From: an uncultured Candidatus Saccharibacteria bacterium | GTDB taxonomy: Bacteria > Patescibacteriota > Dojkabacteria > J137 | DNA: 64,000 nt | Reading direction: 5' to 3' | Assembly (NCBI GenBank): GCA_965230975.1 | Contig: OZ246402.1 | Span: 1,056,859 to 1,120,858, forward strand | Part shown: piece after piece, positions 4,456 to 42,201 of the stretch | Layout of the letters: each line of letters begins with the position of its first letter | How positions within the stretch are numbered: position 1 is the first letter of the stretch | The notes under the pieces: model-generated | Told to the model about the DNA's origin: nothing | Database searches by the model: none | What the model saw: only the letters and a program-made list of their open reading frames with translations | Program-made: the position numbers and the translations under genes

Positions 4456-4531
4456 GCTAGGGTAGCTCAGCTGGTAGAGCAGGGGCCTGAAGAGCCCTGT
4501 GTCGGCGGTTCAAGTCCGTCCCCTGGCACCA
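4456..4531 (+). tRNA. tRNA-Phe (anticodon GAA), 3' CCA encoded
   Basis: Cloverleaf readable. Acceptor GCUAGGG/CCCUGGC with one G-U pair. D-arm GCUC-AGCUGGUA-GAGC. Anticodon stem GGGGC/GCCCU with loop CUGAAGA (anticodon GAA). T-arm GGCGG-UUCAAGU-CCGUC. Discriminator A followed by CCA. Confidence 0.85.
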
Positions 4532-5339: not shown

Positions 5340-5444
5340 ACTCATCTAATTTTCTTATCAATATTACTTAGCAAGAAACTCAAATTAAACTCATTTTTAT
5401 CGGAAAATGTCGGTTTCGGGGTAAACGTACACCGCTCACCAAAT
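5340..5444 (+). repeat. cassette-associated direct repeat, copy 1
   Basis: ...catctaattttcttatcaatatt...caaattaaactcatttttatcggaaaatgtcggtttcggggtaaacgtacaccgctcaccaaat. Core GTTT-N6-AAAC-GTACACCGCTCACCAAAT is shared with the other copies. Confidence 0.8.
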
Positions 5445-5483
5445 AAACCTCATATAATCTTTTCAAAAATGGTATAATTACAT

Positions 5484-5672
5484 ATGCACAATTGGAATAT
5501 AGACACCTCAAAATTTAAGGATAGAAAACAAAAGAAAATCTGGGAACTTGAGCAGAAGATTAATTATGGGTTAAAAGATACTAAACTCTCAAAAAGAGAT
5601 CTGAAAAAATACTTGCCTGAATTACGAATTGATAAAGACAAGAAGAAGTATATTGAATTTATTCTTCAATGA
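5484..5672 (+). CDS. small Lys-rich protein, putative partner (antitoxin-like) of the downstream AbiEii-type nucleotidyltransferase
   Basis: 62-aa ORF. Its stop overlaps the start of the next gene by 4 nt (ATGA), which suggests translational coupling. Confidence 0.35.
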   Translation: MHNWNIDTSKFKDRKQKKIWELEQKINYGLKDTKLSKRDLKKYLPELRIDKDKKKYIEFILQ

Positions 5673-6340
5673 AACCATTCCCAAATAAAGAACTACTAAC
5701 ACCTGAACAACTAAAATTTCTAGAGTTAGTAAACGAAAATACATCAATTAACAAATTATTTAAATTCTCAGGTGGAACAGCTCTAACAACATTTTATATT
5801 CCATACAGGTACTCAGACGATTTAGATTTTTTTTCAGAGCAGATCTTTGAACCTATTGGCATAACGAATTTTATTGCATCTCTAAAAAAGCAGCTAGGAT
5901 TTAATGAATATACATACACCGCATCGTTTAATAGAAATCTATACTTCTTAAGGTTTGACAATGGGTATGAACTCAAAATAGAATTTACTTACTATCCCTT
6001 TGCAACTATAAAACCTCCTTTGAAATTTGGGAACATTAATGTTGATTCTGAGTATGACCTTGCTGTAAACAAGCTTTTTACAATTTATCAAAATCCAAGT
6101 TTAAGACACTTTATGGATTTATATATGTTAATTAAAAAGTATGAATTCAGCTTTGAGGAAATTAAGAAAGATGCTCAAATAAAATTTGGAACATATATAG
6201 AGCATATTCAATTGGGTAGTCAACTTTTAAAGGTAGAATCACTTGAGGATTCTCCTAGACTCATTCAGCAATTAGATTCAAATTGGAAAAAATACTTTTT
6301 GAAAATGGCAAAAAATCTAAGTTCTACAGTCCTAGCTTAA
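5669..6340 (+). CDS. AbiEii/AbiGii-type nucleotidyltransferase toxin family protein (DUF1814-like)
   Basis: Motif FKFSGGTALTTFYIPYRYSDDLDFF matches the GGTAL...R(F/Y)SeDiDF signature of the AbiEii nucleotidyltransferase family. Confidence 0.55.
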   Translation: MKPFPNKELLTPEQLKFLELVNENTSINKLFKFSGGTALTTFYIPYRYSDDLDFFSEQIFEPIGITNFIASLKKQLGFNEYTYTASFNRNLYFLRFDNGYELKIEFTYYPFATIKPPLKFGNINVDSEYDLAVNKLFTIYQNPSLRHFMDLYMLIKKYEFSFEEIKKDAQIKFGTYIEHIQLGSQLLKVESLEDSPRLIQQLDSNWKKYFLKMAKNLSSTVLA

Positions 6341-6351
6341 GCAATTCTACT

Positions 6352-6433
6352 TACCTTCTTTTCAATATCAGGAATCACAAACACTAGATTATACTCTCTG
6401 GTTTTTGGGGTAAACACACCGCTCACCAAATTT
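6352..6433 (+). repeat. cassette-associated direct repeat, copy 2
   Basis: cttcttttcaatatcaggaatcacaaacactagattatactctctggtttttggggtaaacacaccgctcaccaaattt. Confidence 0.8.
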
Positions 6434-6488
6434 CCTCTTTGAAAGTTTATTTAGTAGAATTATATTATATTTGTTTAAGTAAATTTTT

Positions 6489-7433
6489 ATGGATAAATTC
6501 ACTAAATATAAATTTCTTATCACCGTCTATAACGTTAGTATTTTAATTAAAACTGATAGTGCAAACTTAGCTAATATATTAAAAGATGAATTATTATTGA
6601 GTCTTTTTTTACCTGACTTTTTTATTTCTTTACAAGAGGAAGAAAAGCTCACCTCTTTTGACTACTGTTTAACATGCATCCAATCTGATGAGAAGAAAGT
6701 ATTTTCTAACTTCAGGCGAGATGACTTTCTGCTACTTGATGATTGGATAAGTTTTAACAAATATAATTTTTTGGCATTTTTATTATCGTTATTTCAATCA
6801 AAGCTAATATTGAATTCTATTTACATATTGCACGCCGCTGCAGTGCAGTATAATGATATTGGTTTAATATTAATAGGAGATTCAGGTTCAGGTAAAACTA
6901 CCTCCATGCTCGAACTACTAAAGATAGACAAAGGTTTTAAAATAATTGGAAATAACCGAGTTGCAATTGAATCAAAAGAAACTTGTGTAATCAGAGGTGG
7001 CGCAACTGGTATATCGCTAAGAAAGAATATGGACATTAATGAATATATTGATATTCATGGTGGAAACCATATGGAAATCCATGGTGGGAGGAAGCTTTTT
7101 AGACCCGAATATAAATCTTCGGGTGAATTTAATAAAATCAGAAAAATTATTTTCATAGCACTAAGATTGAATCCTGGCGTCGAGGAATATTCGGATAATT
7201 TAGGCTTAGAAAACTCTCATTTACTACTATATCCTGAATTATTAGGAGTTAAAGATAGAGAAGTGGTTCTTTTCAACGGAACCCAAGCAATCCCTTTACT
7301 ATATAATGAGTATGAAGTTAAACAAAAGGTCATAGAAGATACTGCTAAAATAATCAATCAGTCAGAAATCATAAGAATTGCCGGTTCTTTAGAGTTTATA
7401 ACTAAAAAGATCCATGAATTAGTAAAAATTTAG
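6489..7433 (+). CDS. HPr kinase C-terminal-domain-like P-loop protein (HprK-like putative small-molecule or peptide kinase)
   Basis: ILHAAAVQYNDIGLILIGDSGSGKTTSMLELL resembles the HprK/P C-terminal P-loop region (H..AV...G.G.LI.G.SG.GKS). 314 aa. Confidence 0.4.
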   Translation: MDKFTKYKFLITVYNVSILIKTDSANLANILKDELLLSLFLPDFFISLQEEEKLTSFDYCLTCIQSDEKKVFSNFRRDDFLLLDDWISFNKYNFLAFLLSLFQSKLILNSIYILHAAAVQYNDIGLILIGDSGSGKTTSMLELLKIDKGFKIIGNNRVAIESKETCVIRGGATGISLRKNMDINEYIDIHGGNHMEIHGGRKLFRPEYKSSGEFNKIRKIIFIALRLNPGVEEYSDNLGLENSHLLLYPELLGVKDREVVLFNGTQAIPLLYNEYEVKQKVIEDTAKIINQSEIIRIAGSLEFITKKIHELVKI

Positions 7434-7479
7434 CAAGCAATAAATAAGAACTGATATCACACTCTTGATCTCTTATCAA

Positions 7480-7518
7480 TGTCTGTTTGGCTTACCAATA
7501 GACATCCCTCACAAAGTT
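7480..7518 (+). repeat. degenerate copy of the cassette-associated repeat
   Basis: tgtttggcttaccaatagacatccctcacaaagtt aligns to ggtttcggggtaaacgtacaccgctcaccaaat with about 12/17 identity in the core. Confidence 0.4.
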
Positions 7519-7562
7519 TTAAAACTCTTTCGTATTTCAGCTAATTCTTGTAAAATCCTTTT

Positions 7563-8324
7563 ATGGAAGAAAATGTAGTATTTAAAAATTCAAAAGGTGA
7601 TAATTTATCCGGAGTATTTCGTATTGTAAATAATGATATTAATACACATGTAGTGGTATTCGGACATGGATTTACCTCGAACAAAAATGGATCAGCAAAA
7701 GATCTTTCAATTAAGCTAGGTACTTTAGGCATAAACGCTTTCAGATTTGATTTTTATGGACATGGGGAAAGCGAAGGTAAATTTGAAAATATCACAGTAA
7801 GTGAAGGGGTAGACGATATGATACAAGCGATAAATTATGTTAAATCACGAGGATTCACGAAAGTTAGTTTGTTTGGTACTAGCTTTGGCGGACTTTGTTC
7901 AATAATCGCTGCATCTCGCGTCCAAAATCTTACCTTACTTGCTTTAAGAGCTCCAATGCCTGATTTCTATATTAGAGATTTAATGAAAAAATCAAAGCAA
8001 GACCTGGCTGATTGGAAAAGGAAAGGTTATAGAATATATAAACGTAGAGATGGTAGTGAACTTAATCTAAACTATTCTTTTTTTGAAGATTCTAAATCTA
8101 ATAGTGCTTTCATTGCAGGTGAAAAGATTGATATTCCTACATTTATAGTGGTAGGAGATCATGATGAATCCATACCCGTAATATTAAGTGAAATGCTGGC
8201 TAAATCTATTCCTAATTCAGAACTCAGGATCATAGAAGGTGGAGATCATTCATTCACGAATGAAAATCATGACAAAGAGGCAATAGATATTCTTTTCCAA
8301 TTTATACAAAATCATTTACACTAA
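7563..8324 (+). CDS. alpha/beta hydrolase fold protein
   Basis: HGFTSN oxyanion region, GTSFGG nucleophile elbow (GxSxG), and C-terminal GDHDE / GGDHSF acid/His region. 253 aa. Confidence 0.6.
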   Translation: MEENVVFKNSKGDNLSGVFRIVNNDINTHVVVFGHGFTSNKNGSAKDLSIKLGTLGINAFRFDFYGHGESEGKFENITVSEGVDDMIQAINYVKSRGFTKVSLFGTSFGGLCSIIAASRVQNLTLLALRAPMPDFYIRDLMKKSKQDLADWKRKGYRIYKRRDGSELNLNYSFFEDSKSNSAFIAGEKIDIPTFIVVGDHDESIPVILSEMLAKSIPNSELRIIEGGDHSFTNENHDKEAIDILFQFIQNHLH

Positions 8325-8382
8325 TTAGAGAGTTAGAGGATGAGACAGTACATATGGTCAAAGATACTAATTAAATGTGATT

Positions 8383-8470
8383 CTCTTAATCTCCTATTAA
8401 TATCATGAATAACAAACACTAAATTAAACTCTTTTGGTTTCCTTGCAAACGTACACCACTCACCAAATTT
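8383..8470 (+). repeat. cassette-associated direct repeat, copy 3
   Basis: ctcctattaatatcatgaataacaaacactaaattaaactcttttggtttccttgcaaacgtacaccactcaccaaattt. Confidence 0.8.
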
Positions 8471-8512
8471 CAATCTTGCAAAAAAGTCCATAGAATAATA
8501 GAATTAGTAATT

Positions 8513-9496
8513 ATGGACACAATTACTCCCTATGAATGGGGGCTTACAATTCCGAATATTCGATCTTTACAACCTGGATTACCTGAACAAACTTATGTGA
8601 TCTTAGAGAATTTAGATGCATATATAGAAAAGATAGTAACTTCTCTAAACAAGAAAGTTAAAAAGGCTACAAGATTAGGTGGATGGTCTTCGATAAATGT
8701 TAAATTAGATACAGAGGACAACCAAAGTTATGTAATCAAAATAGATCCATGGGTTGGAGTCTTAGTTACATCGGCAACGTTTTATACCTTAGTTAAAGAG
8801 CGATATCCTCAACAAAAAGTTCCTAGACTAGTTAAACTAGACGAATCAAAAGAAGTAATTCCTCATGAATTCTTAGTTTTAGAATATATTGAACACGACA
8901 GCACATCTACCTTCTCTACAGAAGATAAATATGGCGCTGGAAGATTGTTTGGAGATTTTTTAAAAGATATACACAAAATAAGGGTAGAGGGGTATGGCTC
9001 TCCACAAAGTACAGTGCGATGGAAGTTTAAGACATGGGCAGAGGCTCTGCGAAACTTTCTTAACTCTAGATACTTTTCCAAGGCATCAGAAATCTTTGAT
9101 CAAGAAACTATTGACTTCATCATGCAATTACCTACCAGAGCAGAGCCCTCAGAATCAATGCTATTACACGCCGATGTAAGTATTGAAAATTGCTTATTTA
9201 AGCGGGAGAATGACCAACTCCAGATTGCTGCAATAATTGACCCTGATACAACAGGAGGAGATCCTTATTGGGATTTGGCTATAGGAATCGGAAAGAACGA
9301 TGACTTTTCCAGAGGGATTGTTGAAAGTTATTTAGGAGTAGATGCTGAAAAAGAACTTAATTCAAGAAGATTCCTTATTCTTAGTCTGATATATCTCTTT
9401 TGGATTATAGGCTGGAGACAAACAATGGGATTGGATATAAGTGAATATAAAACAGAGTTCGAAGAACAACTAGCTAAATTAAAAGCCATTATTTAA
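8513..9496 (+). CDS. aminoglycoside/choline-kinase-like phosphotransferase (protein-kinase-like fold)
   Basis: LLHADVSIENCLF is a catalytic-loop HxD...N pattern. IIDPDTTGGDPYWDLA matches the APH-family D.D...GDP..DLA pattern. Confidence 0.5.
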   Translation: MDTITPYEWGLTIPNIRSLQPGLPEQTYVILENLDAYIEKIVTSLNKKVKKATRLGGWSSINVKLDTEDNQSYVIKIDPWVGVLVTSATFYTLVKERYPQQKVPRLVKLDESKEVIPHEFLVLEYIEHDSTSTFSTEDKYGAGRLFGDFLKDIHKIRVEGYGSPQSTVRWKFKTWAEALRNFLNSRYFSKASEIFDQETIDFIMQLPTRAEPSESMLLHADVSIENCLFKRENDQLQIAAIIDPDTTGGDPYWDLAIGIGKNDDFSRGIVESYLGVDAEKELNSRRFLILSLIYLFWIIGWRQTMGLDISEYKTEFEEQLAKLKAII

Positions 9497-9509
9497 CTCT
9501 TCTAATCTC

Positions 9510-9597
9510 ACGATCTACATCAACTAGAAGAAAGCTTAGATTAACATTCGAACTAGAGTGTAGGGGTTTCGTGGCAAACGAACACCGCTCACCATTT
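9510..9597 (+). repeat. cassette-associated direct repeat, copy 4
   Basis: cgatctacatcaactagaagaaagcttagattaacattcgaactagagtgtaggggtttcgtggcaaacgaacaccgctcaccattt. Confidence 0.75.
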
Positions 9598-9655
9598 AAA
9601 ACTGCTTTCATTTCCTTTGCTAATAATATAAAATTGGATATTTAAATCTCTTGCT

Positions 9656-11323
9656 ATGATTAGCTACTTAGAGCTTTGGGACAAATTACTATACTTCCTA
9701 GACAAAGATAAAAACAAATTCTTATTTTGGAACATTCCTTATATATTAAGTAATATATTTTCACTAATTCAACCTGTATTAATAGGTGCAATTATAAACT
9801 TCTTTGCTAATTACACTTCTGACAAACCCTTAGATGAGTTCTACTTATATTTAGGAATTTACCTATTAGGATCAGTACTGGCTCAGGTTCTAAGAATAAG
9901 TGCTCGAGGTAAGATGTTTGAGATCAAGGCTGATCTTGAATATAACATTAAAACCAAAGCATTTAATAATATTCAAAACAACGCAATTGACTGGAATCTA
10001 CAAGAGAATTCTGGAAATAAATTACAAAGAATTAATACAGGTACGTCATCTTTAATTGAAGTAGTAAGTCTATTAAGCAATGATATATTTTATATAGTAA
10101 TTAGTTTTATTGGAATTCTTTCATTCTTTACAATAACTAATTTTTCATTTTTAATATTTTTCCTACTATATGCCATTTTATATTTCATCTTATTAAAGTA
10201 TTGGAATAGAAAAAACCCCGAAATGTTAAAGAGATTAAATACAGCTAGAGAGCGTTCTTCAGGGAAAATGTTTGAGGGATTAAGTAATATTCTAACAATT
10301 AAAAGTTTAGGTGTAATAAATAGTTTTCAAAACTCAATTAACAATGCCCAAAATGAACAAAGAGAAGCTGTTAAGGCTTGGGAAAGGTTAGGAGTTTATA
10401 AATGGATTTCTCTTTCAACTTTTGATTTCTTATTCATTGCTGGGTTTTTTATCTTAATTGCAATTGGAATTACTTCTGCACAAATAAGTGCTGGTCTTGT
10501 TTATGTTTTGTATAGTTACTTTATGAATATGCAAGAGATTGCATCTAATTCAAATGGTGTACTTACACAATTAATAGAAATTAAGTCTAATGTTTCTAGA
10601 ATGCTTCCTATTTTTGATCAGGTAAACTATCAAGCTGGTAACAAAAGATTTCCAAAGAATTGGGATTCTCTCCTAATAAAAAATGGTAGCTTTGAATATT
10701 CAGCTGGTGATAATAAGTTAGTATTTAACAATATAAACTTTGAAGTAGTAAGAAATAGTTTTGTAGGTATTGTTGGTGAATCTGGGTCTGGCAAATCAAG
10801 CTTGTTAAAAGTATTAATAGGTTTATATAGAATCAAACAAGGGACTTATCGAATAGGTAACAGAAGCTTTTATGATATATCCCGAGAAGAGGTATTAAAC
10901 CAGATTACTGTTGTGCTACAAGATACAGAATTATTTAATGTAAGTCTTTTAGAGAATATAACTCTATTTAAAGAAGTCGATCTGGACAAATTAAAGTTAG
11001 CCTTAGAAGTTGCACACTTAGAAGATGTTATTAATGAGTTACCAGAAGGATTGAATACTTTAGTTGGAGAAAAAGGTGTCAAACTTTCTGGCGGCCAAAG
11101 ACAAAGGATAGGCATAGCAAGGGCAATTTATAAAGATTCTCAAATTATTTTGATGGATGAAGCAACTTCCAACCTTGATAATGAAACTGAGCAGTTAGTT
11201 ATGAATAATATACTGACTAAATTACAAAATAAAACTTTGATAGTAGTTGCCCATAGGTTATCTACTTTAGAAAAAGCAGATAAAATCTGTAGATTTAAAG
11301 ACGGTACTATTTTCCAAGAGTAG
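9656..11323 (+). CDS. ABC exporter, fused permease/ATPase (bacteriocin/multidrug-type)
   Basis: N-terminal half has multiple TM helices. C-terminal ATPase has Walker A GESGSGKSS, signature LSGGQRQRIGIARA, Walker B ILMDEATS, and H-loop AHRLS. Confidence 0.8.
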   Translation: MISYLELWDKLLYFLDKDKNKFLFWNIPYILSNIFSLIQPVLIGAIINFFANYTSDKPLDEFYLYLGIYLLGSVLAQVLRISARGKMFEIKADLEYNIKTKAFNNIQNNAIDWNLQENSGNKLQRINTGTSSLIEVVSLLSNDIFYIVISFIGILSFFTITNFSFLIFFLLYAILYFILLKYWNRKNPEMLKRLNTARERSSGKMFEGLSNILTIKSLGVINSFQNSINNAQNEQREAVKAWERLGVYKWISLSTFDFLFIAGFFILIAIGITSAQISAGLVYVLYSYFMNMQEIASNSNGVLTQLIEIKSNVSRMLPIFDQVNYQAGNKRFPKNWDSLLIKNGSFEYSAGDNKLVFNNINFEVVRNSFVGIVGESGSGKSSLLKVLIGLYRIKQGTYRIGNRSFYDISREEVLNQITVVLQDTELFNVSLLENITLFKEVDLDKLKLALEVAHLEDVINELPEGLNTLVGEKGVKLSGGQRQRIGIARAIYKDSQIILMDEATSNLDNETEQLVMNNILTKLQNKTLIVVAHRLSTLEKADKICRFKDGTIFQE

Positions 11324-11344
11324 AACTAAAATATTCTTACGATT

Positions 11345-11431
11345 TCTTCATCTAAATCAACTATCATGAAACTCAAGTTAAACTCATTCCCAGAGTAAGA
11401 TGGTTTCGGTGTAAACGCACACCGCTCACCA
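11345..11431 (+). repeat. cassette-associated direct repeat, copy 5
   Basis: tcttcatctaaatcaactatcatgaaactcaagttaaactcattcccagagtaagatggtttcggtgtaaacgcacaccgctcacca. Confidence 0.8.
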
Positions 11432-11501
11432 TACTATTACCTGATTATTGATAAATGATCTCACTTAAGTTATTGTAGTTAATATATATTAATAATCATC
11501 A

Positions 11502-12110
11502 ATGGACTCTGGGCAAAGCAGATATACAAGAGTAAGAAGAGATATTTCAGGAATGAGAGATACAATTCACACCGAAGCAGAGCAAATACCAGTAGAAAGA
11601 ACTGATATGATGTCCGTAGAAGATGCTTCACAGTTAGATGAGAAAAATCTAATATTTTCTACATCTATTTCTTCTAATCATCAAGGTCCAATAATCCAAC
11701 TTGAAATGAGAACAGATACACCTGGTAATGAAGACTTTAGTTTAGGACGAACATTATTTGCACAAGATCATAAAAAGATACCTAAGTATCTATTCGTCAA
11801 TACTGGTTATTTTACTACAGCTCCAACGGGTGCAGGTCTTGGTACAAAGATGTTTAATAAACTATCTAGAGTTTTTCAATATTTAGCCCGAGTAAAGCAG
11901 TCCCAAGTTGTTCATGCTATTCATCCGACTAATGAAAATAACAAAAGATTATATGAGAGATTAGGCTATCAACCTGATAATACTAAGCTTTACGATGATT
12001 CAGGCGAATTTCTTATAAAAACTTTCCAGCCCGAAACAGATACAAATAGCATATATTTGTATGGTGATGAAGTTAAACTACTTGCCCAACTTAGTATGTT
12101 TTATAGTTAA
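11502..12110 (+). CDS. GNAT-family N-acetyltransferase-like protein
   Basis: APTGAGLGTKMF is a Q/R-x-x-G-x-G/A acetyl-CoA motif. NKRLYERLGYQP is a GNAT motif B-like segment. Confidence 0.4.
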   Translation: MDSGQSRYTRVRRDISGMRDTIHTEAEQIPVERTDMMSVEDASQLDEKNLIFSTSISSNHQGPIIQLEMRTDTPGNEDFSLGRTLFAQDHKKIPKYLFVNTGYFTTAPTGAGLGTKMFNKLSRVFQYLARVKQSQVVHAIHPTNENNKRLYERLGYQPDNTKLYDDSGEFLIKTFQPETDTNSIYLYGDEVKLLAQLSMFYS

Positions 12111-12204
12111 TATAACCATTTATGCAAAATATTTCCCAACTTCTATAAAATTGGAACATATCTAACAACTCAGAATGCGAATCTTAAGTTTTGAAGTGTT
12201 ATTC

Positions 12205-12266
12205 AGAATAATAAACAAAAACCTAGTTAAAGCGTAGTTCGTGGTAGTTGTACACCGCTAACCAAT
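12205..12266 (+). repeat. cassette-associated direct repeat, divergent copy 6
   Basis: aataataaacaaaaacctagttaaagcgtagttcgtggtagttgtacaccgctaaccaatt. Confidence 0.55.
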
Positions 12267-12281
12267 TATTCCTATTTAGCG

Positions 12282-12719
12282 TTAATCTTGCAAAGAATAA
12301 ATTATATACCAAGGCTTTTCAGGCAATTCCTTTCTAATTCCTGCGTATACATTATGGATACTAGGCAAGTTCATCCACGGATCAACCCAACCAGTTTCTA
12401 CCTTTAAAAGATAATGCCCTATTGGATACTTTTTGCTTTTTCTAATTAAGGTAATTGAATTTAGTTTTGAAGCTAAACTTACTGATTCAGGAGTAACATC
12501 TCTTTTTGTATTGCAAAATTTTACTGCATAATTAAGTCCTTTAGAATTGAGATATTTTACAAGATCTGAGACTTTAATACCTTTATCCACCTTATAAAAG
12601 TTATTCTCAAAATCTGACTTTATTTCTAAATACTCTTTGTTGAGAAGATTAGCAAGACATGCAATACCACAACCATTTAAGTCATGTTGATGTTGGTATT
12701 CTTTAGAAATATTTTCCAT
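12282..12719 (-). CDS. stand-alone peptidase C39-like (papain-fold, bacteriocin-processing type) domain protein
   Basis: HDLNGCGIACLANLLNKEY matches the C39 catalytic-Cys motif (CG.ACL). Downstream His candidates (PIGHYLL). 145 aa. The only minus-strand gene in the repeat array. Confidence 0.4.
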   Translation of the reverse strand: MENISKEYQHQHDLNGCGIACLANLLNKEYLEIKSDFENNFYKVDKGIKVSDLVKYLNSKGLNYAVKFCNTKRDVTPESVSLASKLNSITLIRKSKKYPIGHYLLKVETGWVDPWMNLPSIHNVYAGIRKELPEKPWYIIYSLQD

Positions 12720-12754
12720 ATAGTAATTATAGCTTACTTATTGATATTCGATGA

Positions 12755-12834
12755 ATCTTCTTAACAATATCTGTAATAACAAACACTAAGTTAAACTCTT
12801 TGGGTTTTGGGGTAAACGGACATCGCTCACCAAA
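12755..12834 (+). repeat. cassette-associated direct repeat, copy 7
   Basis: cttcttaacaatatctgtaataacaaacactaagttaaactctttgggttttggggtaaacggacatcgctcaccaaagc. Confidence 0.8.
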
Positions 12835-12919
12835 GCATAAAACTTAAGAAGGTTTAAATACTAAAAGAATTAGCCTTTAAACGTGCCTTCAAATAAACCT
12901 TATTGTATAATTCCTAATC

Positions 12920-18706: not shown

Positions 18707-18845
18707 GTTGCCGAATTTATAAGGAAAGTATAAAATCGGGATATTGTTAGGACAAAGCTAACAATTTGAGTACGAGGCCACGTTGTGGCACTAATGCGCC
18801 AATATGATTTTGCTACACTAACATTTGCAAAATCATTGGCTTATT

Positions 18846-18918
18846 GAGCAGTTAGCTCAGCTGGTAGAGCGCTCCCTTGACGTGGGAAAGGTCACAGGTT
18901 CGATCCCTGTACTGCTCA
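18846..18918 (+). tRNA. tRNA-Val (anticodon GAC), no encoded CCA
   Basis: Acceptor GAGCAGU/ACUGCUC with discriminator A. D-arm GCUC-AGCUGGUA-GAGC. Anticodon loop UUGACGU. T-arm ACAGG-UUCGAUC-CCUGU. Confidence 0.8.
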
Positions 18919-18996
18919 TTAAATCAAGAATTATGCAAAAGAAATGCAGCAGAATTCTATTGATTTAACGAGTGCAGCTTGTCTGCCTCATTAAAA

Positions 18997-28961: not shown

Positions 28962-29033
28962 GATTTTAGATTAGCATGGGTGTACCAATTGATGCATAAA
29001 TTTGAATTTATATTATATAATCTTGCCCAAATG

Positions 29034-30137
29034 AATAATGGACCTACTATTCCCAACTACAAATTATCAGAAAAAGAAGATGCCTGTTTTAGAAATGAGA
29101 GATATTGGGTAGAAGCATTAGCAGCAATTCTTAAAGATATTGATTCTATGCCCAAACCGATAGCTCCTATTAAAATAAATATTCTTTTTAATAAACAAAG
29201 TACCCCTGTTTATGCTCCTTTCAAATCTCCCAATTTTATGGATGAAGGCTATGGAGAAACAACGGGGCTTGTTTTAGTAGAAGGGCAAGCTTTTGTAATT
29301 AATCTTAGAGGAAATATACTTAGAAGATCCAGTTTGAGTTTAGGAATAATAAATTTAATTTCTAATTATTGCCCGATTCCAGAACTTAGGGATTTTGGTA
29401 TTACACAAAAAGATTTGAGCCTTGAAAAAATCGATAATTTAGACATGGAATTATTTTATGAGGGTAAAGCTACAATAAATGACCAATATCGACAATATGA
29501 AAGTATAAGATACCTTTTGCAAATTTTAGAAATTGATAAACAAACAAAGCTTCAAATAATCTACACTTGGGCTCGAAGTATTATCTTTGATGATAAACTA
29601 TTTGAATCCTTTACAAGAGATTTGAAGCATTGCCTTTTCGAACTTCCAGAAGTTAAACTTGTTATTTTAAAAGCTATACTGGATAACAATTCTAAAGTAT
29701 CCGAAGATATGATTAACTCAGTTTTAAGAAGTAGTGCAGATTATAGCGAGGCTGATGTTGCAAGTTTAATAAGCTTAATTATAGACCCTAGAAATGCCAC
29801 ACTTATTGATATAAATGAGTTAAATGTCATTAGTTTAATAGAATTAGCCATAGAAATTAATAGAGGTGACTTATTGCTAGAAATTTGTGGATACGACTTT
29901 CCATATAAAAATACCTTTTCTTATATAAGTATAAACGCCTTATTTGCAGAGCCTTTTAAGTTGCCATACTTAAAATTACTGGTTTCTATTATCACTTCAA
30001 ATAAATTTGCCCATGCCCATCTTATTAATACTTTGCATACTAGTATTATTTATAAATGGCTGGTTTACTTTGGTGTGAAAGATGTTTACCTATCTAAAAT
30101 TGCACAACTTTACCCTATAGCAAAATCGCCGTTTTAG
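29034..30137 (+). CDS. hypothetical protein, distant paralogue of the 41125-42201 product
   Basis: Shares RNERYWVEAL / NETYWVEAL, DMELFYEGKATINDQYRQYES / DWDLYFDGRASISNRFLQYKS, and a similar helical C-terminal half. Start placed at ATG (MNNGPT) by analogy with the paralogue; the ORF track begins at GTG 28980. Confidence 0.4.
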   Translation, partial: NNGPTIPNYKLSEKEDACFRNERYWVEALAAILKDIDSMPKPIAPIKINILFNKQSTPVYAPFKSPNFMDEGYGETTGLVLVEGQAFVINLRGNILRRSSLSLGIINLISNYCPIPELRDFGITQKDLSLEKIDNLDMELFYEGKATINDQYRQYESIRYLLQILEIDKQTKLQIIYTWARSIIFDDKLFESFTRDLKHCLFELPEVKLVILKAILDNNSKVSEDMINSVLRSSADYSEADVASLISLIIDPRNATLIDINELNVISLIELAIEINRGDLLLEICGYDFPYKNTFSYISINALFAEPFKLPYLKLLVSIITSNKFAHAHLINTLHTSIIYKWLVYFGVKDVYLSKIAQLYPIAKSPF

Positions 30138-33878: not shown

Positions 33879-34766
33879 TTAATTAAAGGTTTGACTTAAC
33901 AATTCTGATGCAGGGTAAAAAATAGAGTAAACATCAATATCTAACTTCCCATTTTCAACGTAAGCTTTTCGTCTTTCGTTTCTTGTAGCAAAATCAAATT
34001 GAGGGTCTACCTTACTGGCTTTGTGATCAAAGAATCTATGGCCAACTAACTTATCTTCTCTTAAAAAAGTGAATGTTGCATATGGTTTTCCATCATCTGC
34101 AATTTCGTAAAGTTTTGGATTATAAACCCAAGAGCCTTCGCTTACGATTCCAACACATTCAGGGTTACTTTTTACAATTTGCCGAATCTTTCTCATTGCA
34201 TCTTCATAATAAGCTCTATCCCAATGTTCAAATGGAGTAGTGATTCCATATTGTTTAAGTGCTAATCTTTCCTTATTCGAAATTACATGCCTATGTACAA
34301 CGCTATTTCCAATAACAACGCCGTATTCTTTTTTTAGAAGTTCTAAGTATTTAAACGAATATTTATCATTAAGGATTGTTAACTCTAGTGCCAACCCGGA
34401 ATTTAATAAGAGCCACTTTCTGGTGCAGTATTTTATTAGCCAGTTCTTATCTACAAAAAGTTCAACAATCTTTTCTTGTGCTAATTCTAAAGAATTGATG
34501 TTTTTAATTTCTAGAATCTCTTGGGTTAAAGCGTTCAAAAGAATATCTCTGTTTTTATTTACTTCGATAGGTATTGTATATTTTGCATATTCAAATGGGG
34601 TATTAATAAAATATTCTAGTCGCTTTAATAACCTACTAACAAAGAACTTGGAAAAACCATTTCTATAAATATAGTCTTCCAAAACATATTGTGCATTACG
34701 TCCGTATCTGGAATTTATTACAGAGTCTATCAGGTCTAAATTTGAATCAAACTGCTTATGGAACAT
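33879..34766 (-). CDS. hypothetical protein
   Basis: 295-aa ORF; no motifs. Confidence 0.35.
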   Translation of the reverse strand: MFHKQFDSNLDLIDSVINSRYGRNAQYVLEDYIYRNGFSKFFVSRLLKRLEYFINTPFEYAKYTIPIEVNKNRDILLNALTQEILEIKNINSLELAQEKIVELFVDKNWLIKYCTRKWLLLNSGLALELTILNDKYSFKYLELLKKEYGVVIGNSVVHRHVISNKERLALKQYGITTPFEHWDRAYYEDAMRKIRQIVKSNPECVGIVSEGSWVYNPKLYEIADDGKPYATFTFLREDKLVGHRFFDHKASKVDPQFDFATRNERRKAYVENGKLDIDVYSIFYPASELLSQTFN

Positions 34767-34821
34767 GACTAATTATAATGTAAGAGGGTGGTTTTGATTA
34801 GGGGTAAATGAGTATTATTGG

Positions 34822-34875
34822 CGGAGAGGGTGAGATTCGAACTCACGGTCCCTCGCGGGACGCCCGTTTTCAAGA
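34822..34875 (-). repeat. 54-bp direct repeat: duplicated 3' half of tRNA-Ser (anticodon loop to 3' end, followed by CCA at 34819-34821)
   Basis: cggagagggtgagattcgaactcacggtccctcgcgggacgcccgttttcaaga is identical to 35631-35684. This copy is followed by tgg (CCA on the minus strand), while the intact gene downstream is not. Confidence 0.85.
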
Positions 34876-34969
34876 GATACTTTCATTTGAAACTATCAAA
34901 GAAGAATACTACTTACCAAACTCTAAGTTATTTTTTATAATAATTTTAATTAGATATTAAATTGTTATC

Positions 34970-35614
34970 ATGTTTTTTGGAACAGAGCCTGAATGGTTGC
35001 CAACTGATACGCTTTTTGAAAAAGGAAAGAATATTGGGTTAACTGAAAATGAATATAGAAAATGGCAAAATTCTCATGCTAGAGTCCTTGAAGTTGGAAC
35101 TGGTACTAGAGGTTCGGCACTTAAAGAATTATTGGAAGATAAGATTGATTGCATTGGATTAGAACCAGGTATTCTCTATAAAGAAGATGATAATTATAGT
35201 CTTTATGAAACAGATCAATTATTAAAAGATAGGGTTGCTCCATTAAATGCTTGTGACGCTATGGATCATCCAGATATAAAAAAGAATGGTCTTGTAGACT
35301 ATGTTTTTGCTCAATCTGCTAATTTTGCAACATATACAAAATCGAAATTTGACTTGATTAATCAAATTCTTGGATTAATTTTTGCCCTTAAAAGAACTAG
35401 GGATTCTTATTTAACATTTGAAGTAAGAAATGATGATTTAAGATTTAGCTTTCGAGGAAATACTGAAAGATTTAATTTAAAAGAATTTCTTTTAAGAATA
35501 AATGCTAGGTACTATGTTAGAACAACGGTATATGGAACTAAATACTTAGTTATATATAGGATTAAAGATAGTGGAAAAGATATAGTGAGTGATCTAGAGA
35601 AAGCCTTGCATTAA
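34970..35614 (+). CDS. class I SAM-dependent methyltransferase-like protein
   Basis: VLEVGTGTRGSAL is a motif I-type E/DxGxGxG sequence. 214 aa. The sole gene between the tRNA-Ser direct repeats. Confidence 0.4.
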   Translation: MFFGTEPEWLPTDTLFEKGKNIGLTENEYRKWQNSHARVLEVGTGTRGSALKELLEDKIDCIGLEPGILYKEDDNYSLYETDQLLKDRVAPLNACDAMDHPDIKKNGLVDYVFAQSANFATYTKSKFDLINQILGLIFALKRTRDSYLTFEVRNDDLRFSFRGNTERFNLKEFLLRINARYYVRTTVYGTKYLVIYRIKDSGKDIVSDLEKALH

Positions 35615-35630
35615 AAGTAACCCTTTTAAA

Positions 35631-35715
35631 CGGAGAGGGTGAGATTCGAACTCACGGTCCCTCGCGGGACGCCCGTTTTCAAGACGGGTACGTTAGACCA
35701 CTCCGTCACCTCTCC
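35631..35715 (-). tRNA. tRNA-Ser (anticodon UGA), long variable arm, no encoded CCA
   Basis: Reverse complement reads GGAGAGG-UG-ACGG...GGUCUAA...CCCGU-CUUGAAA-ACGGG, a long variable arm CGUCCCGCGAGGGACCG, then GUGAG-UUCGAAU-CUCAC-CCUCUCC-G. Confidence 0.85.
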
Positions 35716-35740
35716 CAAAAGCAAAAGTCTTTGCTTTTGG
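35715..35740. other. perfect 11-bp inverted repeat immediately upstream of tRNA-Ser
   Basis: ccaaaagcaaa-agtc-tttgcttttgg. Confidence 0.5.
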
Positions 35741-35869
35741 TTCGCACACAATCTGTGATTTTGTGCAATCAAAAACATTGACGGCTTAATTTTACTTCAC
35801 TTGCAAGCTCTTGGTAAGCTTTTTGAGACTTGTAATTTTAACGTAAAAAGTGGTTTATGACTAGTAATA

Positions 35870-36661
35870 TTAATCTAAATCTACCTTAGCGTTATTCAGA
35901 AAGTTATACGAACCTAAGTTATCACTTTCTTCATCGAAATCATATTCCACTAATCCTTGTTTTTTAGGTTTGAACTCCCAATATCCACCCTCCTGTTCCA
36001 TCAACAAATCCATTCCATCTTCAAAAGTATTGGCAACAATCACTTCTGTCGCCCTATTAATTTCAACTCCATTAGCTTTTGGTGATGAGAAATTCACATT
36101 GAAAATATTTGCAGGAGAGACAAAGTACCATTTCTCTGGGGTAGATTTAGATTTCAGAATGCCTACTACATGACCACTCATTCCGAAGTGATTAGTATCA
36201 CTGGCGTAAACAGCATAGTAATCAAATTCATTTGGATTATGCTTCTTTACATAATTCATTACTCCGTAAACTGACAAACCACAAAGAAAACTCGTCAGTT
36301 GCCAAAAATAAATAATAGAAGACTGCTGATCTTGAGTAATCCAATCTTTACCCTTAAATTTTTCTCTTGCAAATTCAATGTAATTTTTTAAGTAAGTTAA
36401 TTTTTCAATTAAACCCAGTCTCGTAGCTAGTTGAGATTTCAAAAATTCAAGGTCAATTTCTGGTCTTCTGATTTGATTCTGACCCGTAAAGTCTGCCAAA
36501 ATATTTTCTGGAATCAATCCTTTTCTTCTAGGTCCACGTTTTGAAAGAAAGGTTTCCATATTATCATATGAATAAATCACCGCTTCCCTAACAACCATTA
36601 ATCGAGGGTCTTCCCTTAATGATTCTGGATCTCTTATTGACTTTATTTGTGCGTATGACAT
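35870..36661 (-). CDS. hypothetical protein (possible Cys-His-Asp hydrolase fold)
   Basis: 263 aa. Candidate catalytic residues lie in SFLCGLSVYG ... MSGHVVG. Assignment is weak. Confidence 0.3.
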   Translation of the reverse strand: MSYAQIKSIRDPESLREDPRLMVVREAVIYSYDNMETFLSKRGPRRKGLIPENILADFTGQNQIRRPEIDLEFLKSQLATRLGLIEKLTYLKNYIEFAREKFKGKDWITQDQQSSIIYFWQLTSFLCGLSVYGVMNYVKKHNPNEFDYYAVYASDTNHFGMSGHVVGILKSKSTPEKWYFVSPANIFNVNFSSPKANGVEINRATEVIVANTFEDGMDLLMEQEGGYWEFKPKKQGLVEYDFDEESDNLGSYNFLNNAKVDLD

Positions 36662-36902
36662 ATCCCAATTTTATCAGATTTCATACTCAATACACAGAAT
36701 TAGATTAAAATATGCTATAATCTTGGGTTAGCAAATTTTTTAAAAGCTTCATTCAATAATATTTACAGATTTTGGAGCTTTTCAAATACCAAATAAGGTA
36801 TGCTCCGAAAGCTATGTAAATAAATACATAAAGACTTCCGGTTGTAAGGTTTGCATAATTGTTGGGAATTCCAACTAAATAATTTTTTAAAAGGACGCAC
36901 GC

Positions 36903-41124: not shown

Positions 41125-42201
41125 ATGAAATCCGATGTGCTAGACTTACCTTTAAATTTACTAGAAGATCCTTATTGTGGTTTAAACGAAACTTATTGGG
41201 TAGAAGCGTTGGTTGAAAAAGATTTAGACCGGGTTTATTTCCCAACCATACAATATAAACAAGTCACCTTTCAAATAGACCCCAGAACAAAAGTAGTTGT
41301 AATGGTTCCTTTTAAAATTCAAGCAGGAGTAGAAAGTGGATTAGTATATATCAATGGCATTTTAAAAATAATAACCATACGTAATAATAAAGTTGAAATC
41401 TATAGAAGATCTGCACTAAGTAAAGGCATTGAAGATCAAATCAATAGTAAATTTAAAATCCCTCACATACAAATGCAAGAAGAATTCGAAGAGGAGATAG
41501 AAGAAAGTGATTGGGATTTATATTTTGATGGGAGAGCAAGTATAAGCAATAGATTCTTACAGTATAAAAGCACTCTTGCCTTTTTAATATTGTCCGATGT
41601 ACCTTTAGAAACCAAAAATAATTTGATACACCAATGGATACTAAGCCTAGACCCCCTAATAATAAATGACGCTTTTATAAGATCAATAATTTATTATGCA
41701 AGGCATTTACCCACGATAATTGATTCAATAATAGAAAAAATAGCTCACAACAATCTACCAATAACTCAAGAATCATTTTTAGAAATTACAAAGAATTTTT
41801 GTTACAGTCAGCATAGTGCAAAAGAATTACTTGAAATTATTACTAACCTAAACTTTCAAAACCCACAAATTATAACTAAATTCTCTTTTGAGCATATAAC
41901 TAGGGCAATTATTACAAAACAAGAATACCCCTTGATCTTGCAAATACTAAAAGATGACTTTGTCCTAAATAATTATATCGATAGCTATTTTATTCGCTCA
42001 CTAAGAAGGTTTATATTAGAAATGGAAGATCCCATTGAGGATTGTTGCAAAATATTAGATTTATTATTAGAGACAGGAGTATCTAGAATTAACGAAGAGC
42101 TTGCCTATACATTGGTTAAAATTATAAGCGAGGATAGCCTTAGACTTTCTTATTTAAAGATAATTCAAACAAAATTCAAAAGGGCGAATCAAGAACCTTA
42201 A
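41125..42201 (+). CDS. hypothetical protein, paralogue of the 29034-30137 product
   Basis: Conserved blocks NETYWVEALVEKDLD and DWDLYFDGRASISNRFLQYKSTLAFLILSD, with a helical-repeat C-terminal half. Confidence 0.4.
   Translation: MKSDVLDLPLNLLEDPYCGLNETYWVEALVEKDLDRVYFPTIQYKQVTFQIDPRTKVVVMVPFKIQAGVESGLVYINGILKIITIRNNKVEIYRRSALSKGIEDQINSKFKIPHIQMQEEFEEEIEESDWDLYFDGRASISNRFLQYKSTLAFLILSDVPLETKNNLIHQWILSLDPLIINDAFIRSIIYYARHLPTIIDSIIEKIAHNNLPITQESFLEITKNFCYSQHSAKELLEIITNLNFQNPQIITKFSFEHITRAIITKQEYPLILQILKDDFVLNNYIDSYFIRSLRRFILEMEDPIEDCCKILDLLLETGVSRINEELAYTLVKIISEDSLRLSYLKIIQTKFKRANQEP

What the first reader, a model, noticed from the sequence alone, without database searches (positions are those of the whole stretch)
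34819..35715. Minimal integrated element: 54-bp duplication of the tRNA-Ser 3' half bracketing a single methyltransferase gene
The intact tRNA-Ser(UGA) gene on the minus strand lacks an encoded CCA. An exact 54-bp copy of its segment from the anticodon loop to the 3' end lies 809 bp away, and this copy is followed by CCA. That is the expected signature of the displaced original 3' end after site-specific integration into the tRNA gene (attL/attR). The region in between carries only a class I SAM-methyltransferase-like gene and no integrase. This looks like the remnant of, or a very small cargo delivered by, a tRNA-targeting integrase.
Basis: seen in the sequence. Interest (0 to 1): 0.55.

Follow-up and report, generated by a model that had tools for sequence, protein, structure and literature searches.

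The report
Single-gene insertion into a tRNA-Ser gene
An 809-bp piece of DNA carrying one methyltransferase-like gene sits in a serine tRNA gene with the repeat signature of site-specific integration and is absent from a sibling strain, so it is a real but very small, integrase-less example of a well-known kind of mobile-DNA insertion.

Summary
An intact tRNA-Ser(UGA) lies at 35631-35715 on the minus strand and is not followed by CCA. An exact 54-nt copy of its anticodon-loop-to-3'-end segment lies 809 bp away (34822-34875) and is followed by CCA. Between them is one 214-aa ORF, which belongs to a rare family (23 representatives) with a class I SAM-methyltransferase fold.

Contigs from a related strain in an independent metagenome show the same tRNA running uninterrupted through the 54 nt. 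There it is followed by C(CA) and the same downstream flank. They match the window once exactly the 809-bp unit is removed. So the unit is a strain-specific insertion and the CCA-bearing fragment is the displaced original 3' end.

The 5' edge of the repeat lies 1 nt before the anticodon loop, the commonest crossover subsite of tRNA-targeting tyrosine integrases. No recombinase is encoded in the unit or anywhere in the 64-kb window. The 54-mer was not found on any viral, GTDB or JGI contig.

Best reading: an integrase-made insertion that is now an integrase-less, att-flanked single-gene islet (CIME-like). I could not tell whether it is a decay remnant or a cassette moved in trans. This is a known kind of element at unusually small size, and of moderate interest.

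The parts
35631..35715 (-). Intact tRNA-Ser(UGA) gene, 85 nt, no encoded CCA (followed by TTT). Its 3' 54 nt are the attL-side repeat copy.
   Evidence: ARAGORN; Rfam tRNA 58.7 bits; cloverleaf fold; sequence
35631..35684 (-). Repeat copy 1 (attL-like core). Covers tRNA position 31 (1 nt before the anticodon loop) to the discriminator base.
   Evidence: the repeat finder, 54/54 identical; position mapped from the cmscan alignment
34876..35630 (.). 755 bp of inserted unique DNA. Together with one repeat copy it forms the 809-bp unit that is absent from the related strain.
   Evidence: Window minus 35630..34822 aligns end to end with the L014+L001 reconstruction
34970..35614 (+). Cargo gene, 214 aa: a divergent class I SAM-dependent methyltransferase-like protein. 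It is convergent with the tRNA, with 16 nt between the stop codon and the tRNA 3' end.
   Evidence: ORF; 23-member family; conserved LE[VI]GxGxG, EP and A..NF motifs; Pfam Methyltransf_25/23/11/12 in relatives; AF2 pLDDT 91.2; Foldseek PDB matches are all SAM methyltransferases
34913..34941 (+). Promoter-like site (TTACCA-17-TATAAT, 10 of 12) inside the insert, 29 nt upstream of the cargo ATG
   Evidence: Consensus scan. This is a pattern match only; 7 sites were found against 5.3 expected in the region.
34822..34875 (-). Repeat copy 2 (attR-like): the displaced 3' fragment of tRNA-Ser. It cannot form a tRNA on its own.
   Evidence: the repeat finder; fold lacks acceptor and anticodon stems; ARAGORN and Rfam call no tRNA here
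34819..34821 (-). CCA following the displaced fragment: the native 3' context of the tRNA gene
   Evidence: Sequence. The same CCA plus flank follows the tRNA 3' end in related-strain contig L001, and L014 shows the intact tRNA followed by C.
33879..34766 (-). Conserved 295-aa gene downstream of the original tRNA 3' end. It is the chromosomal flank and anchors the empty-site comparison.
   Evidence: Homologs at 80%, 51% and 50% identity; contigs L001, L004, L005; no family hits

Best explanation
**What happened.** A small DNA circle recombined with the chromosomal tRNA-Ser(UGA) gene at or 3' of the anticodon loop (Campbell-type, site-specific). The circle carried one gene and a 54-bp stretch identical to the anticodon-loop-to-3'-end part of the tRNA gene.

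**Result.**
- The incoming 54 bp now completes the tRNA. The gene stays functional but loses its encoded CCA, so it needs the CCA-adding enzyme, as this genome's tRNA-Val already does.
- The original 54 bp, its CCA and the native downstream flank were pushed 809 bp away.
- The cargo is a promoter-equipped gene for a divergent SAM-dependent methyltransferase of unknown substrate.

**The recombinase.** It was most likely a tRNA-targeting tyrosine integrase using the anticodon subsite. It is not encoded in the unit or within about 30 kb on either side. It therefore either acted in trans or was lost.

**Present state.** The locus is an integrase-less, att-flanked islet of the kind called a cis-mobilizable element (CIME).

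**Shown:** the repeat anatomy, the CCA asymmetry, the absence of the unit from a sibling strain, the methyltransferase fold, and the absence of a local recombinase.

**Inferred:** the integrase, the circular intermediate, whether the polymorphism arose by gain or by precise loss, and the enzyme's activity.
For: - **att-like anatomy:** An exact 54-nt direct repeat has one copy inside an intact tRNA and one as a 3' fragment in the same orientation.
- **Canonical subsite:** The 5' edge of the repeat is 1 nt before the anticodon loop. [quoted passage not shown]
- **Sibling strain lacks the unit:** L014 runs through the whole tRNA plus C, and L001 carries CCA and the flank. The joined sequence equals the window minus exactly 809 bp. 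L013, from a third run, also passes the 30-nt point of the repeat without breaking.
- **Same strain has the repeat:** The same-strain contig L006 breaks exactly 30 nt into the repeat.
- **Mildly foreign composition:** Cargo GC3 is 0.158 against 0.223 +/- 0.034 for window ORFs, and its codon distance ranks 50 of 58. The conserved flank gene ranks 14 of 58.
- **Patchy family:** Only 23 representatives exist among 1.84 billion clusters, and the nearest relative is 45% identical.
- **No recombinase nearby:** None is found in the window.
- **Known category:** CIMEs are defined as elements that kept attL and attR but lost their integration and transfer genes (PMC5704250).
Against: - No integrase has been identified, and the rest of the 1.19-Mb genome could not be read.
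- No attP-bearing donor was found. The 54-mer is absent from IMG/VR, GTDB representatives and JGI metagenomes. The cargo family is absent from IMG/VR.
- The unit has only 94 + 16 nt of non-coding DNA. That is too little for the arm-type sites of lambda-like integrases, and there is no pseudogene debris of a decayed larger element.
- The element-side arm next to the core (GTATC) has no symmetry with the anticodon stem.
- The empty site is reconstructed from two contigs joined by a 28-nt overlap at a graph branch, not read on one contig. A different occupant with an att of 32 nt or less in that strain cannot be excluded.
Confidence: 0.6

Rival explanations
1. Integrase-independent insertion. In a donor lineage the methyltransferase gene natively lies next to tRNA-Ser. 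A fragment comprising the tRNA 3' half plus that gene circularised, or entered by transformation, and integrated by RecA-dependent single crossover (or homology-facilitated illegitimate recombination) through the 54 bp of tRNA homology.
For: - It gives the same final structure: direct repeat, intact tRNA, displaced fragment.
- No integrase is in the window.
- The two closest cargo homologs also sit directly beside tRNA genes without any repeat: tRNA-Gly in L007 and tRNA-Met in L010. A native 'tRNA, then this gene' arrangement therefore exists as a possible donor.
- Composition is close to the host, suggesting a donor from the same lineage.
Against: - A random breakpoint has only a few per cent chance of falling within 1 nt of the anticodon-loop edge, which is the canonical integrase subsite (my estimate; subsite data from PMC4383910).
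- 54 bp is near the lower limit for RecA-dependent recombination (general knowledge).
- It requires circularisation of an 809-bp fragment.
- No donor with this tRNA sequence was found in any collection.
Confidence: 0.2
2. The adjacency to a tRNA reflects the biology of the gene family itself. Either the methyltransferase-like protein is functionally tied to tRNA genes, or it belongs to a self-propagating unit that targets them. On this view the insertion is not a by-product of a conventional island.
For: Three of the five family loci with DNA lie directly beside a tRNA gene (window, L007, L010). L008 and L011/L012 do not. Leaving out the ascertained window case, that is 2 of 4 against roughly 10% expected (about 3 tRNA genes per 60 genes here), binomial p of about 0.05 (my calculation).
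Against: - The sample is tiny.
- Three different tRNAs and both orientations are involved.
- No repeats are present at the other loci.
- The fold is an ordinary small-molecule-type SAM methyltransferase with no nuclease or recombinase domain.
- tRNA genes are general hot spots for accessory genes.
Confidence: 0.05
3. Local rearrangement or assembly artefact: the 54-nt repeat arose by misassembly or by local duplication, with no foreign DNA involved.
For: Short repeats at tRNA genes are a classic source of assembly errors. The source is a single NCBI contig of unknown assembly quality.
Against: - Independent k=31 assemblies of two sequencing runs of the same strain break at the repeat exactly as a real two-copy repeat predicts (L004, L005, L006).
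- The DNA between the copies is unique and carries an intact gene with conserved family motifs.
- A tandem duplication would duplicate the intervening DNA, which occurs only once.
Confidence: 0.03

Closest known systems
tDNA-integrated genomic islands and prophages as defined by Islander (Hudson, Lau & Williams 2015, PMC4383910)
   Same: - The target tRNA is regenerated, and its displaced 3' fragment in direct orientation marks the two ends.
- The identity block starts at the anticodon loop (subsite A, the commonest).
- The unit is present in some close strains and absent in others.
   Different: - There is no integrase gene inside.
- At 0.8 kb it is far below Islander's 2-kb length filter, and below the 3.5-kb smallest integrase-bearing island reported for Klebsiella.
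- Such pipelines would discard it by design.
CIMEs, cis-mobilizable elements (Pavlovic et al. 2004, as reviewed in PMC5704250)
   Same: It is flanked by intact attL and attR, lacks integration and transfer genes, and lies at the 3' end of a tRNA gene. Its attR could still serve as a target for an incoming element.
   Different: - Described CIMEs are decayed ICEs or IMEs of Firmicutes, which I recall as several kb long (from memory).
- Here there is a single intact gene with no debris of a larger element, the host looks like a small-genome Patescibacteria/CPR-type bacterium (my inference from gene content and 31.6% GC), and descent from an ICE or IME is not shown.
Integron gene cassettes
   Same: The size and logic are similar: one ORF plus one short recombination site, no recombinase of its own, moved by a recombinase encoded elsewhere.
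   Different: - The recombination site is a tRNA 3' half rather than an attC hairpin.
- There is no intI/attI platform and no cassette array.
- The gene has its own promoter-like site.
- This is an analogy only.
PYG1 of Pyrococcus yayanosii and similar archaeal islands (PMC9897764)
   Same: A partial and a complete tRNA gene copy (44-bp direct repeats there) bracket inserted DNA. The partial copy can be mis-annotated as a tRNA.
   Different: PYG1 is about 21.4 kb, and the similar insertions in that dataset are about 9-23 kb of viral DNA. Here the insert is 0.8 kb and has no integrase.

Membership tests
tDNA-targeting integrative island (Islander definition) | Intact tRNA gene plus a cognate fragment of it in the same orientation on the same replicon | tested here: met
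   54/54-nt direct repeat; a full tRNA and a 3' fragment
tDNA-targeting integrative island (Islander definition) | The fragment is an end fragment whose inner boundary lies at a canonical crossover subsite (anticodon loop, T loop, or T/acceptor junction) | tested here: met
   The boundary is 1 nt 5' of the anticodon loop and the fragment runs to the discriminator base; subsites per PMC4383910
tDNA-targeting integrative island (Islander definition) | Tyrosine integrase gene (PF00589) inside the island | tested here: not met
   The only ORF is methyltransferase-like. No recombinase is found in any window ORF.
tDNA-targeting integrative island (Islander definition) | Length 2-200 kb | tested here: not met
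   The unit is 809 bp
tDNA-targeting integrative island (Islander definition) | Variable presence: an unoccupied attB in related genomes | tested here: met
   L014 plus L001 from one run reconstruct tRNA, CCA, flank without the unit. Caveat: the two contigs are joined by a 28-nt overlap at a graph branch.
CIME (cis-mobilizable element) | Retains both attL and attR | tested here: met
   Both 54-nt copies are intact and identical
CIME (cis-mobilizable element) | Lacks integration and transfer genes | tested here: met
   A single methyltransferase-like ORF
CIME (cis-mobilizable element) | Derived by decay of an ICE or IME | tested here: inconclusive
   There are no pseudogene remnants, since only 94 + 16 nt are non-coding. 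No related larger element was found.
CIME (cis-mobilizable element) | Excisable or mobilisable by the integrase of an element that integrates next to it | not testable with these tools
   This needs read-level junction searches or experiments
Integron gene cassette | attC site (imperfect palindrome) and residence in an array next to intI/attI | tested here: not met
   The recombination site is a tRNA half. There is no integrase and no array in the window.
Insertion sequence / transposon with target-site duplication | Transposase gene, terminal inverted repeats, short target duplication (about 2-15 bp) | tested here: not met
   No transposase; no inverted repeats at the unit ends; the duplication is 54 bp
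Class I SAM-dependent methyltransferase (cargo protein) | Rossmann-like seven-strand fold with a GxGxG SAM-binding loop and an acidic residue at the end of strand 2 | tested here: met
   AF2 pLDDT 91.2; PDB Foldseek top hits are all SAM methyltransferases, E down to 5e-7, TM 0.45-0.56; invariant E41, G43, G45, E65, P66; Pfam methyltransferase domains in relatives
Class I SAM-dependent methyltransferase (cargo protein) | Significant match of the protein itself to a curated methyltransferase family | tested here: not met
   The best match is Methyltransf_23 at E = 0.033, 14.4 bits against a cutoff of 27. There are no NCBIfam, PHROG or PADLOC hits.
Class I SAM-dependent methyltransferase (cargo protein) | SAM binding and methyl transfer to a defined substrate | not testable with these tools
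   This needs biochemistry

The most novel reading that the evidence does not exclude
The 809-bp unit is not a dead remnant. It is a working minimal cassette: one gene plus a tRNA 3' half as its only cis-acting site, captured and released by a recombinase encoded elsewhere in the genome or on a visiting element. It would be a tRNA-based counterpart of integron cassettes in a reduced-genome bacterium. The position of the two nearest homologs of the cargo gene beside other tRNA genes would then be traces of the same traffic.
Probability: 0.15. Interest if true: 0.6.

Novelty: new member of a known kind. Interest (0 to 1): 0.35.

Why it matters
- **A blind spot in island finders.** Island-finding pipelines require an integrase and a minimum length of 2 kb or more. 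Insertions like this one are therefore systematically invisible, and the displaced tRNA fragment risks being annotated as a tRNA or pseudogene.
- **A clean worked example.** Single accessory genes can enter a very small bacterial genome through a tRNA attachment site and differ between sibling strains.
- **If still mobile.** The unit would define about the smallest conceivable integrative element and would point to a trans-acting recombinase worth finding.
- **Limits.** As it stands it does not challenge current understanding of tRNA-targeted integration.

Tried and rejected
**Searches that found nothing useful**
- Left-flank protein in GTDB species genomes and its four-member alignment in JGI metagenomes.
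- The exact 54-mer in IMG/VR, GTDB representatives and JGI metagenomes, and a 33-mer core in IMG/VR.
- Cargo family in IMG/VR: the alignment was too diverse, and the three-sequence alignment gave no relative.
- blastn of 34700-35800 against phage and plasmid records gave only about 80% generic tRNA-Ser similarity, for example in Ralstonia phages and C. difficile plasmids.
- Pfam, PHROGs, PADLOC and NCBIfam on the cargo ORF and both flanking ORFs.
- The word-indexed protein search for the cargo and the 263-aa ORF returned only self hits.
- The exact-protein look-up of the cargo gene is not on record. Its absence from Logan samples is therefore uninformative.

**Checks that came back negative or unusable**
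- Decayed tRNA-fragment repeats at the homolog loci L007 and L009/L010: none above shuffled controls in direct orientation.
- AF2 of the 263-aa ORFan without an alignment: pLDDT 38.7, unusable.
- Williams 2002 (PMC100330) is not held, so subsite statements are cited from PMC4383910 and the Klebsiella preprint.

**Readings considered and rejected**
- Transposon target duplication: 54 bp is far too long, and there is no transposase or terminal inverted repeat.
- SSV-type split integrase: no ORF crosses either repeat.
- Integron cassette: no attC, intI or array.
- Intron or homing-endonuclease insertion: the tRNA is uninterrupted.
- Tandem duplication: the intervening DNA is single-copy.
- Compositional island: GC is indistinguishable from the flanks at 1-kb scale.

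Full report
**1. The observation**

The window carries three tRNA genes. One is tRNA-Ser(UGA) at 35631-35715 on the minus strand, confirmed by Rfam at 58.7 bits and by a cloverleaf fold with a long variable arm.

The repeat finder reports a single exact 54-nt direct repeat, 34822-34875 and 35631-35684, 809 bp apart. A 24-nt core of it occurs only at these two places even with three mismatches allowed. No shuffle of the window produced a match.

In tRNA sense the repeat starts at canonical position 31, one base before the anticodon loop CUUGAAA, and ends at the discriminator base. The full gene is followed by TTT and the fragment by CCA. The fragment alone cannot fold as a tRNA.

**2. What lies between the copies**

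The 755 bp between the copies hold one ORF (34970-35614, plus strand, 214 aa).
- It is preceded by 94 nt containing a TTACCA-17-TATAAT promoter-like site (a pattern match only).
- It is followed by 16 nt before the tRNA 3' end, so gene and tRNA are convergent.

Evidence on the protein:
- Its own Pfam match is sub-threshold (Methyltransf_23, E = 0.033).
- The word-indexed search found only itself.
- The exhaustive HMMER search found 23 representatives, the nearest 45% identical.
- The family alignment keeps LE[VI]GxGxG, an EP at the end of the next strand, and A..NF.
- Nine relatives match Methyltransf_25, and others match Methyltransf_23, _11 and _12.
- An AlphaFold model built on that alignment is confident (pLDDT 91.2, pTM 0.89).
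- Its best PDB matches are all SAM-dependent methyltransferases acting on small molecules: MtmC, glycine/sarcosine N-methyltransferases, and sugar C-3' methyltransferases (E about 1e-6, TM 0.45-0.56, about 15% identity). Viral-structure matches are equally generic.

The cargo is therefore a real, probably active, divergent class I methyltransferase of unknown substrate.

**3. Context**

The window is ordinary chromosome of a small, AT-rich (31.6% GC) bacterium. It encodes MutL, ClpP, ThrRS, RecG, RNase III, a PBP, ABC transporters and type IV pilus genes. The source is a 1.19-Mb NCBI contig. My guess of a Patescibacteria/CPR-type organism is an inference.

No ORF of 150 aa or more in the window matches a recombinase family. 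The precomputed Pfam tables for about 10 kb on either side show none. Motif heuristics found none.

GC does not mark the insert at 1-kb resolution. The cargo gene is mildly atypical: GC3 is 0.158 against 0.223 +/- 0.034, and its codon distance ranks 50 of 58. The conserved flank gene ranks 14 of 58.

**4. The empty site**

Relatives of the flanking genes exist only in Logan and ENA assemblies.

*The same strain (runs SRR12762303/04).* Contigs stop at the repeat exactly as a k=31 graph predicts for a two-copy repeat.
- L006 ends 30 nt into it from the tRNA side.
- L004 and L005 begin inside its last 28 nt and continue CCA, flank and the 295-aa gene.

*A sibling strain (run SRR12404957).* This was reached through the 90% cluster of the neighbouring DEAD-box helicase.
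- Contig L014 contains the whole, identical 85-nt tRNA. It passes through all 54 nt without a break and ends one base later with C, not T.
- Contig L001 from the same run begins 27 nt before the tRNA end and reads CCAATAAATACTC…, followed by a 294-aa gene 80% identical to the window's flank gene.
- The two contigs overlap by 28 nt. Their union aligns almost perfectly with the window after removal of exactly 35630..34822, which is 809 bp.
- Flank identities are 95-99%.

*A third run.* L013 also runs 42 nt into the repeat region without the 30-nt break.

*Conclusion and caveat.* The 809-bp unit is strain-specific and the CCA-linked fragment is the original 3' end. The join lies at a graph branch. 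The contig start positions imply another sequence in that metagenome sharing about 29 nt of the tRNA end plus CCA. An unrelated occupant with an att of 32 nt or less cannot be formally excluded. What is directly read is that the intact tRNA there is followed by C and that no second path enters the 54-mer.

**5. Mechanism**

The anatomy is the textbook outcome of recombination between an attP carrying the tRNA 3' part and attB in the gene. [quoted passage not shown] A boundary one base from the anticodon loop is unlikely for a random break. I therefore favour integrase-mediated insertion (0.6).

Because the unit has no recombinase, it fits the published category of CIMEs: elements that kept attL and attR but lost their integration and transfer genes (PMC5704250).

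Two sub-scenarios remain open.
- **Decay of a larger island.** Against it: both att copies are perfect, there is no debris, and only 110 nt are non-coding.
- **A minimal cassette moved in trans.** Against it: no donor, helper or second copy was found in IMG/VR, GTDB or JGI.

The main rival (0.2) is a RecA-dependent Campbell insertion of a circularised fragment from a lineage where this gene natively neighbours tRNA-Ser. The two nearest homologs do sit directly beside tRNA-Gly (L007) and tRNA-Met (L010) without repeats.

One consequence of the insertion holds under either mechanism. The tRNA has lost its encoded CCA and acquired a new 3' trailer. It now depends on CCA addition, as tRNA-Val in this window does, whereas tRNA-Phe encodes CCA.

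**6. Comparison, novelty and verdict**

Functionally this is a tDNA-integrated islet. By membership it fails two Islander criteria (integrase inside, length of 2 kb or more) and meets the CIME criteria that can be tested. It resembles an integron cassette only by analogy.

I found no report of an att-flanked tRNA insertion this small in the literature searches. Those searches cover open-access papers only.

I rate it a new member of a known kind, with interest 0.35.

Noticed in passing
window 35868-36707 (ORF 35870-36661, minus strand): A second strain-specific segment lies on the other (5') side of the same tRNA. The 263-aa ORFan has no homolog other than itself among 5.8 billion clusters. 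In the related strains L013 and L014 it is replaced by about 18-30 unrelated nt. An imperfect 16-nt inverted repeat (14 of 16) sits just inside its two ends, at 35867-35882 and 36696-36711 (pair I4). The single-sequence AF2 model was unusable.
   Followed up: partly
window 35716-35722 versus L013/L014 positions about 76-170: Directly 5' of the tRNA, the related strains carry about 70 extra nt containing two perfect hairpins (for example CAAACTTGACCTACTAGTCAAGTTTG). The window has only a short hairpin (AAAAGCAAAGACTTTTGCTTTT). Both sides of tRNA-Ser are therefore variable among close strains.
   Followed up: no
window 5412-12841 (copies at 5412, 6401, 8436, 9565, 11402, 12235, 12803): Seven copies of a conserved intergenic motif of about 32 nt, GGTTTCGGGGTAAACGnACACCGCTCACCAAA. 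In three copies it is extended upstream to about 76 nt. Most copies lie just upstream of a plus-strand gene; the genes in this stretch include AbiEii-like, HPr-kinase-like, hydrolase, APH-like kinase, ABC transporter and MFS. No Rfam family matches. It could be a shared operator, promoter or leader.
   Followed up: partly
L007:1647-2407; L010:43-814; L009:5566-5579: The two closest homologs of the cargo gene also lie directly beside tRNA genes. One is 39 nt downstream of tRNA-Gly on the same strand. The other is convergent with tRNA-Met, 40 nt apart, the same geometry as in the window. Neither has a direct repeat. L009 has an isolated 14-nt T-arm-like match in inverted orientation, about 270 nt upstream of the gene.
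   Followed up: partly
starts of L001, L004 and L013; end of L014: The contig ends do not all fall at the k-1 positions expected from the 54-nt repeat alone: 27-28 nt before the tRNA end, and 42 nt into the repeat. This implies further sequences in those metagenomes that share the tRNA-Ser 3' end (plus CC or CCA) but differ downstream. They could be other strains, isoacceptors or other occupants of the same site.
   Followed up: no
window 4456-4531 and 18845-18919: CCA encoding is mixed in this genome. tRNA-Phe is followed by an encoded CCA, while tRNA-Val is not.
   Followed up: yes
window 28980-30137 and 41125-42201: Two ORFs of 385 and 358 aa with no Pfam match share similar N-terminal sequence (…ERYWVEAL… / …ETYWVEAL…). 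They also share a 27-nt DNA repeat (29093 and 41184, D18). This suggests a paralogous family of unknown function.
   Followed up: no
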